Below are positions 4,244-24,519 of a stretch of 64,000 bases of DNA, in pieces. Origin of the DNA: Escherichia phage vB_EcoM_3A1_SA_NWU; sequence record OR062524; one strand, given 5' to 3'. Position 1 is the first letter of the stretch. Every line of letters begins with the position of its first letter. A program made the position numbers and the translations under genes. The notes below the pieces were generated by a model, which saw nothing but the letters and a program-made list of their open reading frames with translations, was not told the DNA's origin and searched no databases.

Positions 4244-6484
4244 TCACATCTTGCAAGCTTCACAACCACCATCAGAATCTTCTTGTGCTAAAGAATCTGC
4301 TGATTTTGTTCTACTATTAAGGTAATACAATGACTTGCCACCCAATCTAGCAAAATTCAGAATAAACTGCATCTCGGCTTTCACTGATAAACGTCCACCT
4401 ACCAATTTAGAATAATCTAGCCAAGAATCACAAGAAATTCCTTGGTCCGTAAACTTGGTAAAGATACCATACATTTCTGCAAGATCTTTAGCCGGAGTAT
4501 CCCAGGCGGATTGGTAGAACATTTTCAGTTTTTCGTAGTCTGGAACAATAAATAATACACTACCTTTCTGACTTTGTTTATACATAATAGTATCACGAAC
4601 AGGGTACAGAGAGTTAGTAGTATTGCTTACCAAACTGCTGGACTCATTAGGTGCAATAGCAGCCAAGACACTATTACGGATACCACCTTGTTCAATGATT
4701 TCAGCACGTAAACCTTCCCAGTCCATTTTAAGATCAAAGTTACCGACACTATCTACTGCTTTAGCATAGGTGTCAATTGGTAGCCAACCTTGAGGCCATT
4801 TGGTCTTATCGATCCATTCTGCATTACCTTTTTCCTTAGCCAGACGCAAAGAGGCTTTTGCCAACCAAAAGTAATGACGTTCTGCAAGTTCATGCATTAA
4901 TTTTTTAGCATAATCATCTGAATAATTTACAAAATTACTTGCCAAGTAATGTGCTAAGTTTGTAATGCCTACACCAATAGATCTACGTGCTTTAGCAGTT
5001 ATTTCGTTATGTTTAAATGGATAATCCATTGTTTCAATAACGTTGTCAATTGTCAATACAGTGTAGTATGCAACATCCTCATATTCTTCAGGTAATACAC
5101 GACCAGCAACAATAGAAGATAAGAAACATAAAGCCAATTCTTGATCTTCTGTATTTTCACCAGTAAAGAGATCCGGCATACTGTGGAAAGCTTTAGTTGG
5201 TAAGAAGATCTCTTGACACAGGTTTGATTGATACACCGTATCCAAGAAAGGTGTATGGTTGTTAACGTTGTCAGCAAAGAACATGTAAATACGTCCTGTT
5301 TCTGCACGTTGAACAATAATCTCTGTAAGAAGATCACGAGCCTTGACGAATTTTTTCTTAATGCGACGTCGGCTTACTTTGTCATAAACTGCATCAAACT
5401 CTTCTTCACTTTTATACAAAGCTTCATAAAGTTCAGGAGCATCATCACAACTAACTAACATCCAGTCTTCGTTTTTAGCTGCTCGACGCAAGAACGAACG
5501 GTTAACAACAATAGAATAATCCAGTTTGTCTACTCGTTTATCTATAGGTGTTGTTGGATTCTTCAGTCGAATCAGATCGTCGAAGTCTGGTTCAAGTATG
5601 GTAAAGGTAACTGTAGCACTACCTCCACGACTTGCTTGCTTTGAAGCTCCAACACTATCTTCCATCCATTTCAGATACGGAAGAAGACCACCATGAATAA
5701 TACGATTATTCTTAACACCTTGACCTGTGGCACGAGTTTGAAGATTAACACCAATACCTGCGTTATTCAACGTATACTCATGAGCTAAGTAATTAGCAAT
5801 GGCTAAAGACTCTGCCGTATCGTCTGCACGGAATAAACAACAAGACGCACTTCCTTTGATTGGAGTTCGTAGAGTTGTCAGATACGGCGATGGCAGATTA
5901 ATCTTAAGATCGCTAACATAAGTATAAAGTTTTTTAATATCTTCTATACGGCGTTCTTTTGGTTGGATCTCCATAACCTTCATTGCGATACCAATGAAAA
6001 GAAACTGTGGAGACTCATGCACCACATCGTTTACTGCATCTCGAATAAGATATTTATCTACCATCTGACGTAAAACAGAATAACCATAAGTTAGATTTTT
6101 ATTATGCTTTACAATCTTACCGATTTCTTTGATCTCTTCATCGGTATAATCCATTTTAGCCCAATGTCCACGTTCTACCATATCATGATAAAAGGTATTC
6201 AGTGAAGGGATACTGTGGTATCCCCCATGAGCCTGTTTGTAAATCATACCCAGAAGAAGTCTTCCTGCCATATCACTGTAAGCTTGTGTTTTCTTGTCAA
6301 TACACGCTGCAATCATTGCTTTATGCAGATCACGTGTAGACACACCGTCATAACACCGCTTCACAGCTTCTAATTCAATTTCAGACCAGTTTAGTTTACC
6401 TGCTGCAAATTCAGACCACTTACGAAGTTTTTCTGGATTAAACTCCTCTGTCTTACCATTAGATTTAGTTACAAAACGAATCAA
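4244..6484 (-). CDS. nrdA: ribonucleotide reductase class Ia large (alpha) subunit
   Basis: 746 aa; N-terminal ATP-cone-like region, C-terminal redox Cys pair (GGCEACKM). Confidence 0.9.
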   Translation of the reverse strand: MIRFVTKSNGKTEEFNPEKLRKWSEFAAGKLNWSEIELEAVKRCYDGVSTRDLHKAMIAACIDKKTQAYSDMAGRLLLGMIYKQAHGGYHSIPSLNTFYHDMVERGHWAKMDYTDEEIKEIGKIVKHNKNLTYGYSVLRQMVDKYLIRDAVNDVVHESPQFLFIGIAMKVMEIQPKERRIEDIKKLYTYVSDLKINLPSPYLTTLRTPIKGSASCCLFRADDTAESLAIANYLAHEYTLNNAGIGVNLQTRATGQGVKNNRIIHGGLLPYLKWMEDSVGASKQASRGGSATVTFTILEPDFDDLIRLKNPTTPIDKRVDKLDYSIVVNRSFLRRAAKNEDWMLVSCDDAPELYEALYKSEEEFDAVYDKVSRRRIKKKFVKARDLLTEIIVQRAETGRIYMFFADNVNNHTPFLDTVYQSNLCQEIFLPTKAFHSMPDLFTGENTEDQELALCFLSSIVAGRVLPEEYEDVAYYTVLTIDNVIETMDYPFKHNEITAKARRSIGVGITNLAHYLASNFVNYSDDYAKKLMHELAERHYFWLAKASLRLAKEKGNAEWIDKTKWPQGWLPIDTYAKAVDSVGNFDLKMDWEGLRAEIIEQGGIRNSVLAAIAPNESSSLVSNTTNSLYPVRDTIMYKQSQKGSVLFIVPDYEKLKMFYQSAWDTPAKDLAEMYGIFTKFTDQGISCDSWLDYSKLVGGRLSVKAEMQFILNFARLGGKSLYYLNSRTKSADSLAQEDSDGGCEACKM

Positions 6485-6755: not shown

Positions 6756-7195
6756 TGATTAGTATCATCTGCTTTCGCAGGATCATAAGAGTTACCGAAA
6801 TCATCCATCTTAATATGTGACGCACCCCAACCTGTAAATTCTTCATCACCAAAATGAAAAATATCATTTTCTTGATAGATTCGTTTAAAACCACAATTAG
6901 GTGAAACAGGGAAAGTGAAAAGCGTTGTATTTGCAAACACTACTCGCTTATCGTTATTGCTTCGGATATTCACATTACGCTCAACAGAATAGTGTGAATC
7001 TTCAGCCATACCCAGCATTACAAGCGACGCTCTAATAACAGCATTTTGTTTCTCGTGTGGGATATTGCCATTGTGTTTATTTGATTCTAGTTTCCAGATA
7101 GGGGTAGACATTACAGTAGACATGCTTACGGTAGCCCAAGTTGTAGTATTTACTAATGACATATTTTCTCCTTCATTTTGAATGGGAGGACTCAC
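6752..7195 (-). CDS. hypothetical protein (likely start ATG at 7162; track start is GTG)
   Basis: ORF track; GAAGGAG RBS 5 nt before internal ATG; promoter at 7217..7244 upstream. Confidence 0.5.
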   Translation of the reverse strand: MSPPIQNEGENMSLVNTTTWATVSMSTVMSTPIWKLESNKHNGNIPHEKQNAVIRASLVMLGMAEDSHYSVERNVNIRSNNDKRVVFANTTLFTFPVSPNCGFKRIYQENDIFHFGDEEFTGWGASHIKMDDFGNSYDPAKADDTNQ

Positions 7196-22921: not shown

Positions 22922-22951
22922 TTGACAAACGTATCCTTCATATGTTAGGAT
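22922..22951 (+). promoter_or_regulatory. possible sigma70-like promoter TTGACA-N18-TAGGAT ahead of tRNA cluster
   Basis: attgacaaacgtatccttcatatgttaggat; weak -10. Confidence 0.3.
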
Positions 22952-22964
22952 ACGTTCATCAAGT

Positions 22965-23154
22965 GTGGTAACAGGGTCGTTGACTTTTGTTAAGAGGGGC
23001 TTGCACTGCGGTAGTGTTAGAGACTACTTCTTCAGAGGTTAGCTACCAAAGAGGAAAAGGAATAGTCTCGGCTCAAGAACTTTTACGCTGAAAGTTGGGC
23101 TTGGTCTTAGAGAATGTAGCGGTTCTCTACAATCGTCAGCGTCTCTGTTACCAC
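22965..23154 (+). ncRNA. candidate structured RNA or processing leader immediately 5' of first tRNA
   Basis: 10-nt terminal pairing gtggtaacag (22965..22974) with ctgttaccac (23145..23154) encloses about 170 nt with internal hairpins; no ORF. Confidence 0.3.
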
Positions 23155-23160
23155 ATTTAT

Positions 23161-23235
23161 GGCCCTGTAGCTCAATGGGAGAGCTGTCGGCTCATAACCG
23201 ATAGGTAGCTGGATCGAAACCAGCCAGGGCCACCA
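23161..23235 (+). tRNA. tRNA-Met (anticodon CAU), CCA encoded
   Basis: Manual fold: acceptor GGCCCTG/CAGGGCC, anticodon loop CTCATAA, T-arm GCTGG-ATCGAAA-CCAGC. Confidence 0.8.
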
Positions 23236-23312: not shown

Positions 23313-23508
23313 GAACATTTTAACATGAATTAGCTCAAGTGATTTGAACCCACTACTGATCATGGTGGCAGAGAATGAGGCAAGTATGTCAGACATTATA
23401 AACAAAGGCCACGGTTATATTAGAAGACATAAATGCTCGAAGAGCACCGTTCGTGGAGAACGGGGGTTGGTGGAGTCACCATTCATGGTAAAATGTTTTA
23501 AAAAACTA

Positions 23509-23538
23509 TTGACAACAAACATTATTTTATGTTAGATT
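23509..23538 (+). promoter_or_regulatory. possible internal promoter TTGACA-N18-TAGATT before tRNA-Ser
   Basis: ttgacaacaaacattattttatgttagatt, about 10 nt before tRNA start. Confidence 0.35.
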
Positions 23539-23546
23539 ATAAGTAT

Positions 23547-23637
23547 GGAAGGGCAAATCGATGTGGCGACGAAAACGGTCTTGAAAACCGCCGAGCTTGA
23601 AAGAGCCTTGGGAGTTCGACTCTCCCTCCTTCCGCCA
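23547..23637 (+). tRNA. tRNA-Ser (anticodon UGA), long variable arm, CCA encoded
   Basis: Manual fold: acceptor GGAAGGG/TCCTTCC, anticodon loop CTTGAAA, T-arm GGGAG-TTCGACT-CTCCC. Confidence 0.75.
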
Positions 23638-23728: not shown

Positions 23729-23858
23729 AGTTCTTTTTAATGTAGCTTACTTTAGCAGAGTAAATCTTCGGCAAGTGGCGGTAACCACTTTACCGATACC
23801 TCATAGTTAGTGGTGTGAACACTGGCTATTTTAAAAAGAATTTAAATATTAGTATTTA

Positions 23859-23946
23859 GGTGAGTTAATTCCGTAGGGGTAGCGGGGCAGACTGTAAATC
23901 TGTTATCATTGCGATTCGGGTGGTTCGACTCCATCACTCACCACCA
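23859..23946 (+). tRNA. tRNA-Tyr (anticodon GUA), class II, atypical 5-nt connector before D-stem
   Basis: Acceptor GGTGAGT/ACTCACC 7/7, anticodon loop CTGTAAA, T-loop TTCGACT, CCA encoded. Confidence 0.6.
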
Positions 23947-24203: not shown

Positions 24204-24519
24204 ACACAACATTAAGAGCACTGTGATTGATCGTCGTATCCTGTGCACAAGGTCTGCTCGAAAGACAGTGTTCTTAGTATTGTGTTGATCACAAAAAGAG
24301 TCACCCGAAACTTGACCGGAGTAGGGTTGGATGGGGCAAAATGAGAAGCGGCTCTCCCATCGACAGCAACGAAGAATAATATTTGACTTTGGTTTTGTAT
24401 TATTTTAAGTTAGCTTACCGAACGTAGGGCTAGTCACCCAACGGGATACTCGTCACTGTCCCAATCAATAAAAGTCTTGACAACAAATAGTAAAATGTAG
24501 TATAGTAAATATATATGGC
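24204..24519 (+). ncRNA. 315-nt non-coding spacer with long-range pairing; candidate stable RNA
   Basis: aagagcactgtg ... acagtgttctt pairing, repeated agtcaccc(g/a)aac motif; no ORF or tRNA fold. Confidence 0.25.
24477..24506 (+). promoter_or_regulatory. sigma70-like promoter TTGACA-N18-TATAGT before tRNA-Gly
   Basis: cttgacaacaaatagtaaaatgtagtatagt. Confidence 0.4.

What the first reader, a model, noticed from the sequence alone, without database searches (positions are those of the whole stretch)
22965..23154. 190-nt structured non-coding element just upstream of the first tRNA
A 10-nt perfect terminal pairing (gtggtaacag / ctgttaccac) encloses a region with several internal hairpins, no ORF, and higher GC than its surroundings. 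Some phage tRNA clusters are known to encode stable small RNAs; this could be one, or a precursor-processing domain.
Basis: partly seen in the sequence, partly recalled or inferred. Interest (0 to 1): 0.5.

Follow-up and report, generated by a model that had tools for sequence, protein, structure and literature searches.

The report
New structured RNA leading phage tRNAs
Between a strong promoter and the first tRNA of this phAPEC8-like coliphage lies a gene for a folded RNA of about 203 nt, found so far only in this phage genus, whose shape is kept by compensating mutations but which matches no known RNA family and has no known function.

Summary
The window is a Phapecoctavirus (phAPEC8-like) genome. 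A conserved sigma-70 promoter with an extended -10 (22922-22951) is followed by an RNA of about 203 nt (about 22958-23160). This RNA ends 2 nt before tRNA-Met.

P1 encloses a three-way and a four-way junction with four hairpins.

Across 19 distinct sequences, 99.1% of pair cells are standard pairs. Thirteen pairs show changes on both sides, against 2-5 in shifted controls. The element varies less (0.32 of columns) than third codon positions of the neighbouring ORF (0.77). P1 is almost invariant (0.04).

It matches no Rfam family. It is not a tRNA or tmRNA and shows no coding signature. It is single-copy and absent from E. coli genomes, from sister genera, and from T4's rnaC/rnaD region.

My best reading is a stand-alone stable small RNA. 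Its 5' end would be the transcription start and its 3' end would be cut by RNase P. It would then act in trans through invariant loops and P1. Expression and function are untested. I class it as a new RNA family of a known general kind.

The parts
22922..22951 (+). Sigma-70 promoter: -35 TTGACA (22922-22927), 18-nt spacer, extended -10 TGtTAGGAT (22943-22951)
   Evidence: Found by the promoter scan with 10 of 12 matches plus TG. The -35 is invariant and the TGnTA(A/G)GAT is kept in all seven lineages aligned. Perfect -35 plus extended -10 sites occur 5 times in the window against 0.41 expected. Activity is not shown.
22958..23160 (+). Predicted mature or precursor small RNA of about 203 nt. 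The 5' end is the inferred transcription start at A22958. The 3' end is the inferred RNase P cut before tRNA-Met.
   Evidence: The covariance model R1 matches 22957-23160 at 216.7 bits. The start is inferred from its distance to the -10. The end is inferred from the tRNA-Met start at 23161.
22961..22990 (+). P1 5' arm (pairs with 23129-23158).
   Evidence: 26 pairs in the RNAalifold consensus. 22 of the 26 pairs never vary in 19 sequences. In the outer 22 pairs, 2 of 44 columns vary, against 34 of 88 in the inner helices (Fisher p = 1.8e-5).
22996..23000 (+). P2 5' strand (pairs with 23104-23108). P2 closes the four-way junction P2/P3/P4/P5.
   Evidence: 5 pairs, 100% paired. 2 pairs have double changes and 3 have one-sided changes.
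23003..23017 (+). P3 hairpin with a variable loop
   Evidence: 5 pairs, 2 with double changes. The loop varies in both length and sequence.
23020..23069 (+). P4 long hairpin. Its apical UUAGCUACC (23039-23047) is invariant.
   Evidence: Helices 4-7, with 3 pairs carrying double changes. UUAGCUACC is identical in all 19 sequences.
23070..23101 (+). P5 hairpin (GGCUCAAGAAC..UUUACGCUGAA..GUUGGGCU), nearly invariant
   Evidence: 13 pairs, 2 with double changes. The variable-column fraction is 0.18, the same as tRNA-Met.
23104..23108 (+). P2 3' strand
23109..23128 (+). P6 hairpin. Its loop holds the invariant GUAGC (23116-23120), which is complementary to GCUAC in the P4 loop.
   Evidence: 4 of 5 pairs have double changes, with five different stem sequences across lineages. 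The loop-loop duplex of 5-9 bp scores -7 to -14 kcal/mol in every lineage. The tertiary contact itself is inferred.
23129..23158 (+). P1 3' arm.
   Evidence: The 2-nt spacing to tRNA-Met is kept with three different tRNA-Met alleles.
23161..23235 (+). tRNA-Met (CAU). Its 5' maturation by RNase P would create the 3' end of the element.
   Evidence: ARAGORN and Rfam tRNA at 64.5 bits. RNase P cleavage at tRNA position +1 is established knowledge and was not tested here.

Best explanation
This is a gene for a stand-alone structured small RNA of about 203 nt. So far it is found only in the genus Phapecoctavirus.

Host RNA polymerase would start at about A22958, from a conserved promoter with a perfect -35 and an extended -10. 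The first paired base is 3 nt downstream of that start.

The RNA folds into a 26-bp closing helix, P1. P1 carries a three-way junction (P1/P2/P6) and a four-way junction (P2/P3/P4/P5).

The RNA is co-transcribed with the tRNA array, because no terminator lies between them. It would be released when RNase P cuts at the 5' end of tRNA-Met, 2 nt after P1, in the same way as the upstream member of a tRNA-tRNA dimer. P1 would then shield both ends from exonucleases and from 5'-end-dependent RNase E, so the RNA should accumulate.

I infer that it acts in trans. The candidates for contact with a partner are its invariant surfaces: the P4 loop UUAGCUACC, the P6 loop GUAGC (the two probably kiss), the P5 hairpin, and the sequence-invariant P1 duplex. 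The most likely action is to bind or sequester a protein or RNA early in infection.

Shown here: the structure, covariation, purifying selection, promoter conservation, constant tRNA spacing and restricted distribution. Inferred: transcription, the two ends, stability and any trans action.
For: - **Fold.** The z-score is -4.5 on the + strand, and the - strand folds 20 kcal/mol weaker.
- **Covariation.** In 19 distinct sequences, 99.1% of pair cells are standard pairs. Thirteen pairs have double changes, against 2-5 in slid controls, and 0 of 500 shuffles reach the observed covariation score. Every inner helix except the two short invariant ones covaries. Conserved G-U pairs fix the strand.
- **Purifying selection.** The fraction of variable columns is 0.32 in the element, 0.77 at third codon positions of the adjacent ORF and 0.50 in the intergenic DNA. 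It is 0.04 in the P1 arms and 0.18 in P5, the same as in tRNA-Met.
- **Promoter.** It is conserved in all lineages. The cluster's other extended -10 promoter (23509-23538) is followed directly by a tRNA-Ser-like gene, so the element occupies a 'gene' slot.
- **Co-transcription.** No terminator-like site lies between the element and tRNA-Met.
- **Link to the tRNA.** The 2-nt spacing is kept with three different tRNA-Met alleles.
- **Not needed for tRNA processing.** Sister-genus phages (Justusliebigvirus, Citrobacter Tr1) have the homologous upstream ORF but go straight to tRNA-Met.
- **Independence from the tRNA.** The element is kept intact (234-236 bits) in contigs where an HNH homing-endonuclease gene separates it from tRNA-Met.
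- **Not coding.** No codon periodicity, and no ATG or Shine-Dalgarno sequence.
Against: - There is no transcript evidence of any kind. No paper in the library reports RNA data for this locus.
- No partner or target was found. The conserved P4 loop has no complement in the 64-kb window.
- In the variants carrying the endonuclease gene, RNase P cannot form the 3' end next to P1. Either another route exists or the element can also serve as a 5' UTR.
- Only about five lineages of one genus are available, so the invariance of loops and of P1 rests on shallow phylogeny.
- Two other spacers of the same tRNA cluster also fold with long closing helices. That fits a purely architectural role for such modules.
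Confidence: 0.55

Rival explanations
1. The element is a cis-acting leader of the tRNA operon. It is a self-contained 5' domain that protects the polycistronic precursor from 5'-end-dependent decay or Rho. It could also insulate tRNA folding, or give RNase III or RNase P a defined entry site. It would have no function once cut off.
For: It sits at the extreme 5' end of the transcript, and P1 starts 3 nt after the inferred start. P1 is a near-perfect duplex of about 23 bp, the size of an RNase III substrate (inference). Spacers 23313-23508 and 23729-23858 also fold with closing helices that covary, which suggests a general architecture of self-folding spacers.
Against: A structural insulator needs only pairing. 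Yet the loops, P5 and both P1 strands are invariant in sequence. The next promoter of the same cluster and the tRNA promoter of Citrobacter Tr1 drive tRNAs with no such leader, and Justusliebigvirus has none either. Variants tolerate a 736-nt endonuclease insertion between the element and the tRNA.
Confidence: 0.25
2. The element is a ligand- or factor-sensing RNA. It would be a riboswitch-like aptamer, or an RNA 'sponge' for a small molecule, in which the multi-helix junction forms a binding pocket.
For: It has junction-rich architecture with invariant joining strands (UUGUUAA.A and UGUUAGAG) and a P1 formed by the two ends.
Against: It has no expression platform. There is no terminator or sequestered ribosome-binding site downstream, and a tRNA follows directly. 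A 26-bp P1 is far too stable to switch. No riboswitch family matches at E <= 10.
Confidence: 0.06
3. The element works at the DNA level. It would be a miniature inverted-repeat insertion, or a homing-endonuclease target region whose inverted repeats are kept for DNA reasons, so that the RNA fold is incidental.
For: It is an insertion relative to sister genera. It has long terminal inverted repeats. Two alleles of an HNH endonuclease gene insert exactly at its 3' edge.
Against: It is single-copy in the window and in a 50-kb stretch of a relative. It is absent from 5,426 E. coli genomes and from 185,579 species genomes. Compensatory changes occur in all internal hairpins. Conserved G-U pairs would be mismatches on the other strand. 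The fold is asymmetric between strands. No target-site duplication is visible at the flanks.
Confidence: 0.05
4. The element encodes a small protein. Some GenBank records annotate a 34-aa ORF at 22987-23091 as a CDS.
For: The frame is open in all lineages. It is annotated as a hypothetical protein in PsgM04F and several other records.
Against: The ORF has a TTG start with no Shine-Dalgarno sequence and lies inside stable helices. Variable-column fractions at codon positions 1, 2 and 3 are 0.32, 0.38 and 0.26. The real ORF upstream gives 0.47, 0.29 and 0.77. The amino-acid sequence diverges as fast as the DNA.
Confidence: 0.02

Closest known systems
Phage T4 species 1 and species 2 RNAs (rnaC, rnaD)
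   Same: They are small structured RNAs of a coliphage encoded inside the tRNA gene cluster and adjacent to a tRNA. The T4 record annotates them as small, stable RNAs. That they are co-processed with the tRNAs, and that their function is still unknown, is from my own knowledge.
   Different: They lie at the 3' end of the cluster, after tRNA-Arg, not at the 5' end. rnaC carries a tRNA-like T arm (CCGGGUUCGAAUCCCGG), which this RNA lacks. There is no sequence or structure homology: model R1 finds nothing in the T4 region. They are also shorter, at 139 and 119 nt.
Functional by-products of tRNA precursors: the E. coli 3'ETS-leuZ sRNA sponge, and RNase P-defined 3' ends such as MALAT1/mascRNA (own knowledge)
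   Same: A non-tRNA segment of a tRNA-containing transcript is released by tRNA-processing enzymes and then acts on its own. RNase P cleavage at a downstream tRNA(-like) structure defines the 3' end of the upstream RNA.
   Different: 3'ETS-leuZ is short, poorly structured and Hfq-dependent. MALAT1 is eukaryotic and very long. Neither has a 26-bp closing helix or this junction architecture. The processing itself is inferred here, not shown.
Y RNA / YrlA, 6S RNA and adenovirus VA RNA: RNAs whose 5' and 3' ends form a long terminal stem that carries a functional module
   Same: A long terminal helix made of both ends, a size of 100-200 nt, and, in those cases, action as a protein-binding decoy or scaffold.
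   Different: No Rfam family, including Y RNA, YrlA and 6S, matches the element at E <= 10. 6S is an unbranched rod with a central bubble, whereas this RNA is multi-branched. YrlA has a tRNA-like T loop, which is absent here.
Phage-associated RNA motifs next to tRNAs (GOLLD, ROOL, freshwater-1)
   Same: They are structured RNAs of unknown function that sit among phage tRNA genes. A freshwater-1 RNA was seen between tRNAs in an unrelated IMG/VR contig.
   Different: There is no match to those families. GOLLD and ROOL are several times larger. The host range and phage lineage also differ.

Membership tests
Any Rfam 15 family (4227 models) | Covariance-model score at or near the family threshold | tested here: not met
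   No hit overlaps 22958-23160 on either strand, even at E <= 10. The same is true for three divergent lineages.
tRNA / tmRNA | Cloverleaf with T and D arms, or a tRNA-like domain plus tag reading frame | tested here: not met
   ARAGORN finds none in the element. Rfam tRNA, tRNA-Sec and tmRNA give no hit at E <= 10.
T4 rnaC / rnaD small stable RNAs | Homology in sequence and structure | tested here: not met
   Model R1 gives no hit in T4 69000-74000, which contains rnaC and rnaD. The folds differ.
T4 rnaC / rnaD small stable RNAs | Encoded within a phage tRNA cluster and contiguous with a tRNA | tested here: met
   The element ends 2 nt before tRNA-Met, the first of 12 tRNA genes.
T4 rnaC / rnaD small stable RNAs | Accumulates as a stable RNA in infected cells | not testable with these tools
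   No expression data. No literature on this locus.
Y RNA / YrlA | Match to the Y_RNA or YrlA model, with a tRNA-like module on a Ro-binding stem | tested here: not met
   The only YrlA hit in the region, at 21.7 bits, lies on tRNA-Pro and tRNA-Ile, not on the element.
6S RNA | Unbranched rod with a large central bubble, and a match to the 6S model | tested here: not met
   The consensus structure has a three-way and a four-way junction. No 6S hit.
HEARO / IscB omega RNA (an RNA upstream of an HNH nuclease ORF) | Match to the HEARO model and obligate linkage to an IscB-type RuvC+HNH protein | tested here: not met
   No Rfam hit. An HNH ORF follows the element in only 2 of the 19 distinct element sequences (5 of 31 sampled loci). 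It is a 235-aa HNH_3-like plus HTH homing endonuclease.
Riboswitch | Aptamer coupled to an expression platform (a terminator or a sequestered ribosome-binding site) | tested here: not met
   No terminator-like site lies between the element and the tRNA. A tRNA, not an ORF, follows.
MITE-like repeat element | Multiple dispersed copies and a target-site duplication | tested here: not met
   Single copy. No match in E. coli genomes. The flanks TTCATC and ATGGCC are not a duplication.
Protein-coding gene | Excess variation at the third codon position, and a start codon with a ribosome-binding site | tested here: not met
   compared with the real ORF.

The most novel reading that the evidence does not exclude
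The RNA is an early, abundant phage decoy or sponge. Its sequence-invariant 22-bp duplex and its conserved loops would trap a host factor such as a dsRNA-binding or tRNA-targeting defence or processing protein. Alternatively, it self-assembles through its palindromic P4 loop (UAGCUA) and the P4-P6 loop complementarity into a multimeric RNA particle. That would make it a small cousin of the phage-linked ROOL and GOLLD assemblies.
Probability: 0.1. Interest if true: 0.8.

Novelty: new variant of a known kind. Interest (0 to 1): 0.5.

Why it matters
- **Therapy phages.** Phapecoctaviruses are common E. coli phages, and many isolates were characterised as candidates for phage therapy. They would carry an unannotated, strongly selected RNA gene expressed from an early-type promoter. 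Several GenBank records annotate a short hypothetical-protein CDS over it, which the evidence here does not support.
- **New RNA family.** It has clear covariation and a compact fold with two junctions, so it is a tractable target for structure and function work.
- **Maturation route.** The RNA would run from the promoter start to an RNase P cut. This adds a bacterial-virus example of tRNA-processing enzymes releasing a non-tRNA RNA.
- **The invariant duplex.** A duplex that does not vary in sequence, with a homing endonuclease inserting at its edge, points to a functionally critical surface.
- **Possible role.** If the RNA proves to neutralise a host factor or defence system, that would matter for phage-host biology and for choosing therapeutic phages.

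Tried and rejected
1. **IMG/VR scan with GGTTAGCTACCAAAG.** All 53 loci are chance or coding matches. Two of them lie next to tRNAs (L053, L035) and looked promising by eye. Model R1 gives only 7-9 bits there, and the L053 spacer holds a freshwater-1 RNA instead.
2. **Looser two-block and P1-arm patterns.** In IMG/VR, metagenomes and species genomes these returned only Phapecoctavirus contigs or chance hits.
3. **R1 with filters off on a Seunavirus (L089).** It gave a 17.8-bit hit at 6795-6990. The hit aligns only a terminal inverted repeat, skips the whole interior, and lies in two well-formed ORFs. I rejected it.
4. **Homology to T4 rnaC/rnaD, to the Justusliebigvirus and Citrobacter Tr1 tRNA regions, and to the Mosigvirus tRNA-Met region.** None found.
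5. **Origin from a host RNA.** No blastn match in 5,426 complete E. coli genomes.
6. **An antisense target of the conserved P4 loop in the window.** None found. The weak site at 4776-4790 has the same sense as its mRNA.
7. **Coding potential of the three short ORFs.** Rejected.
8. **Literature on Phapecoctavirus or phAPEC8 non-coding RNA or transcriptomes.** Nothing relevant.
9. **CsrA, Hfq, boxA, T-loop and K-turn motifs.** I looked for these by eye and saw nothing convincing. They were not formally tested.

Full report
**What the window is.** The 1.1 kb around the finding is 99-100% identical to many Escherichia phages of the genus Phapecoctavirus (phAPEC8, ESCO13 and others; subfamily Stephanstirmvirinae). 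The finding lies at the head of a cluster of tRNA genes. ARAGORN. Rfam adds one at 23859-23943 and a tRNA-Ser(UGA)-like gene at 23547-23633. In a relative's annotation the cluster sits between leftward replication genes and rightward lysis, packaging and structural genes.

**Check of the observation.** The two 10-mers are at the stated coordinates. The 190 nt fold to -71.5 kcal/mol (z = -4.5; 0 of 200 shuffles fold as well) on the + strand, and to only -51.5 kcal/mol on the - strand. Only short ORFs with GTG or TTG starts (25-37 aa) are present. G+C is 45%, against 34-40% upstream. The element is a little larger than stated: the pairing extends to 22961/23158.

**Relatives and distribution.**
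- blastn finds the element in 70 phage records. All are Phapecoctavirus-type genomes of about 150 kb, and some carry odd host labels. They fall into a 98.6-100% group and an ~80% group (phiWec179-190, PsgM04F).
- Pattern scans and look-ups anchored on the upstream ORF added metagenomic lineages (L059, L061, L079, L080, L090-L108). This gave 19 distinct sequences in about five lineages.
- Nothing was found in 5,426 E. coli genomes or in one genome for each of 185,579 species.
- Justusliebigvirus and Citrobacter phage Tr1, in the same subfamily, have a 42-46% identical homologue of the upstream ORF. They have no room for the element, and model R1 finds none there. In Tr1 a promoter leads straight into tRNA-Met. 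In JohannJBalmer an unannotated tRNA-Met-like gene follows the ORF at once.
- The element is therefore an insertion between promoter and tRNA-Met that is specific to Phapecoctavirus.

**Structure and covariation.** RNAalifold gives the same fold from 5 and from 7 sequences.
- P1 has 26 pairs (22961-22990 with 23129-23158).
- A three-way junction joins P1, P2 and P6.
- P2 closes a four-way junction with P3, P4 (long) and P5.

On 19 distinct sequences, 99.1% of 1330 pair cells are standard pairs, against 40-47% when partners are slid by 1-3 columns. Thirteen pairs carry changes on both sides, against 2-5 when slid. None of 500 shuffles reaches the observed covariation score. P6 has five different stem sequences across lineages. 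P2, P3, P4 and P5 all covary. Conserved G-U pairs, together with the strand asymmetry of the fold, place the RNA on the + strand. SNPs among near-identical isolates mostly fall in loops or give G-U/A-U exchanges. I saw three disruptive ones: P6 in REC, P4 in L095 and P1 in PsgM04F.

**Selection.** Pairwise identity between lineages (79%) is no higher than in the neighbouring spacers. Per-column variability over seven sequences is more informative:

| Region | Fraction of variable columns |
|---|---|
| Third codon positions of the adjacent ORF | 0.77 |
| Intergenic DNA | 0.50 |
| Element (whole) | 0.32 |
| P5 | 0.18 |
| tRNA-Met | 0.18 |
| P1 arms | 0.04 |

In the outer 22 pairs of P1, 2 of 44 columns vary, against 34 of 88 in the inner helices (Fisher p = 1.8e-5). 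P1 has no compensatory double change at all. So P1 is constrained in sequence, not only in pairing. Also invariant are UUAGCUACC in the P4 loop, GUAGC in the otherwise variable P6 loop, most of P5, and the joining strands. GUAGC is complementary to GCUAC in the P4 loop, and the possible loop-loop duplex is 5-9 bp (-7 to -14 kcal/mol) in every lineage. This suggests a kissing contact, but it cannot be tested by covariation because both sides are fixed.

**Not coding.** The 34-aa frame that some records annotate is open in all lineages. However, it has a TTG start, no Shine-Dalgarno sequence and no codon periodicity (0.32, 0.38, 0.26, against 0.47, 0.29, 0.77 in the real ORF).

**Transcription and ends (inferred).**
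- A promoter with a perfect -35 and an extended -10 lies at 22922-22951. It is conserved in all lineages.
- Sites of this class occur 5 times in the window, against 0.41 expected. The other one in the cluster (23509-23538) is followed within about 8 nt by a tRNA-Ser-like gene. A third promoter-like site (24477-24506) lies about 11 nt before tRNA-Gly.
- At the first promoter, P1 takes the position that a tRNA takes at the others.
- The expected start is A22958, 3 nt before P1. No terminator-like site precedes tRNA-Met.
- P1 ends 2 nt before tRNA-Met +1. This equals the tRNA-Met/tRNA-Arg spacer, and it is kept with three different tRNA-Met alleles.
- RNase P cleavage at +1 (established knowledge) would therefore release an RNA of about 203 nt with both ends locked in P1.

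**An informative variant.** In four metagenomic contigs sampled here, carrying two distinct element sequences (loci L090/L099, L093, L097), a 235-aa ORF sits exactly between the element and tRNA-Met. It has its own Shine-Dalgarno sequence and a TTG start, with a weak HNH_3 match and a C-terminal HTH. Part of its DNA is about 71% identical to genes annotated as HNH endonuclease in Klebsiella phages RaK2 and K64-1. A fifth contig for which no DNA was returned shows the same gene layout. Two alleles of this ORF, 77% identical in protein, use the same site. The element stays intact in these contigs, at 234-236 bits. Three points follow.
- The element is a module independent of the tRNA.
- Adjacency to the tRNA is not indispensable.
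- The boundary next to the invariant P1 arm is a homing site. That fits the known habit of such endonucleases of targeting conserved, constrained sequence (established knowledge; the target itself was not tested).

**Comparison with what is known.**
- No Rfam 15 family matches at E <= 10 in any lineage. ARAGORN finds no tRNA or tmRNA.
- T4's rnaC and rnaD are the nearest known kind, being small stable RNAs in a coliphage tRNA cluster. They are not homologous. They lie at the other end of the cluster, and rnaC has a tRNA-like T arm.
- Conceptually the element resembles functional by-products of tRNA precursors and RNAs whose 3' end is made by RNase P (own knowledge).
- Its terminal-stem architecture recalls Y, 6S and VA RNAs, but it fails their membership tests.

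**Explanations.** I favour a stand-alone, stable, trans-acting small RNA (0.55).
- The main rival is a purely cis-acting leader for stability, insulation or processing (0.25). Closing helices in two other spacers of the cluster support it. Against it are the sequence-level constraint, the absence of the element from other tRNA promoters and from sister genera, and the tolerated endonuclease insertion.
- Riboswitch-like sensing, a DNA-level element and a small protein are each unlikely, for the reasons given under the rival explanations.
- That this is a genuine, selected RNA structure I put at about 0.9. What it does remains inference.

**Verdict.** The element is real, a new RNA family, and a new variant of a known kind: small structured RNAs embedded in phage tRNA operons. 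Interest is moderate, at 0.5. It is a well-supported and tractable candidate in medically used phages, but there is no expression or functional evidence yet.

Noticed in passing
L099:3126-3833 (also L090:1226-1649, L093:1225-1649, L097:577-1001): In some metagenomic Phapecoctavirus contigs, a 235-aa ORF is inserted exactly between the structured RNA and tRNA-Met. It has a weak HNH_3 match and a C-terminal HTH. Two alleles, 77% identical in protein, use the same site. No isolated phage in the phage collection carries it at this site.
   Followed up: partly
window 23547-23636: A tRNA-Ser(UGA)-like gene with a long variable arm and an encoded CCA. ARAGORN misses it, and in Rfam it scores only as tRNA-Sec (35.7 bits, below threshold). 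PsgM04F annotates it as tRNA-Ser. It starts about 8 nt after the promoter at 23509-23538.
   Followed up: partly
window 23859-23943: A tRNA (Tyr in relatives) found by Rfam at 39 bits but not by ARAGORN. In the phiWec lineage the tRNA-Tyr/tRNA-Asn region is rearranged.
   Followed up: no
window 23313-23508 and 23729-23858: Two other spacers of the tRNA cluster also fold with long terminal closing helices (z = -4.2 and -3.2). Each has a compensatory change in its closing helix relative to the phiWec lineage, so they may be further structured RNA modules. The first also holds a 49-63-aa ORF with a divergent centre.
   Followed up: partly
L058:3750-3800 versus window 23745-23800: The two-hairpin core of the second spacer (CTTACTT..AGAGTAAA and TCGG..CCGAT) recurs in Citrobacter phage Tr1 just upstream of its tRNA promoter. 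This module is therefore conserved beyond the genus.
   Followed up: no
window 23161-23235: This tRNA-Met is about 95% identical to the tRNA-Met of many T-even phages (Mosigvirus and relatives), which suggests exchange of tRNA genes between unrelated coliphages. Within Phapecoctavirus, three different tRNA-Met alleles follow the element, and tRNA-Arg is present or absent.
   Followed up: partly
L057:3749-3824: Escherichia phage JohannJBalmer has an unannotated tRNA-Met(CAU)-like gene with an unusual T loop directly after ORF bas62_0252.
   Followed up: no
L053:9983-10044 (- strand): An unrelated IMG/VR contig, picked up by a chance 15-mer match, carries a freshwater-1 RNA (RF02979, 74.5 bits) in a spacer between tRNA genes, downstream of an intron-like interrupted tRNA.
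   Followed up: no
window 22922, 23509, 40894 (+) and 14977, 62098 (-): Five promoters with a perfect TTGACA and an extended -10 (TGnTAnnnT), against 0.41 expected by chance. This is probably the phage's strong host-polymerase (early) promoter class.
   Followed up: partly
GenBank records OR584014 (PsgM04F), OR786310, PV682947, PV691511, PV763039, OR544956: These records annotate a hypothetical-protein CDS over the structured RNA. In PsgM04F it is 34 aa. The evidence here indicates that the annotation is spurious.
   Followed up: partly
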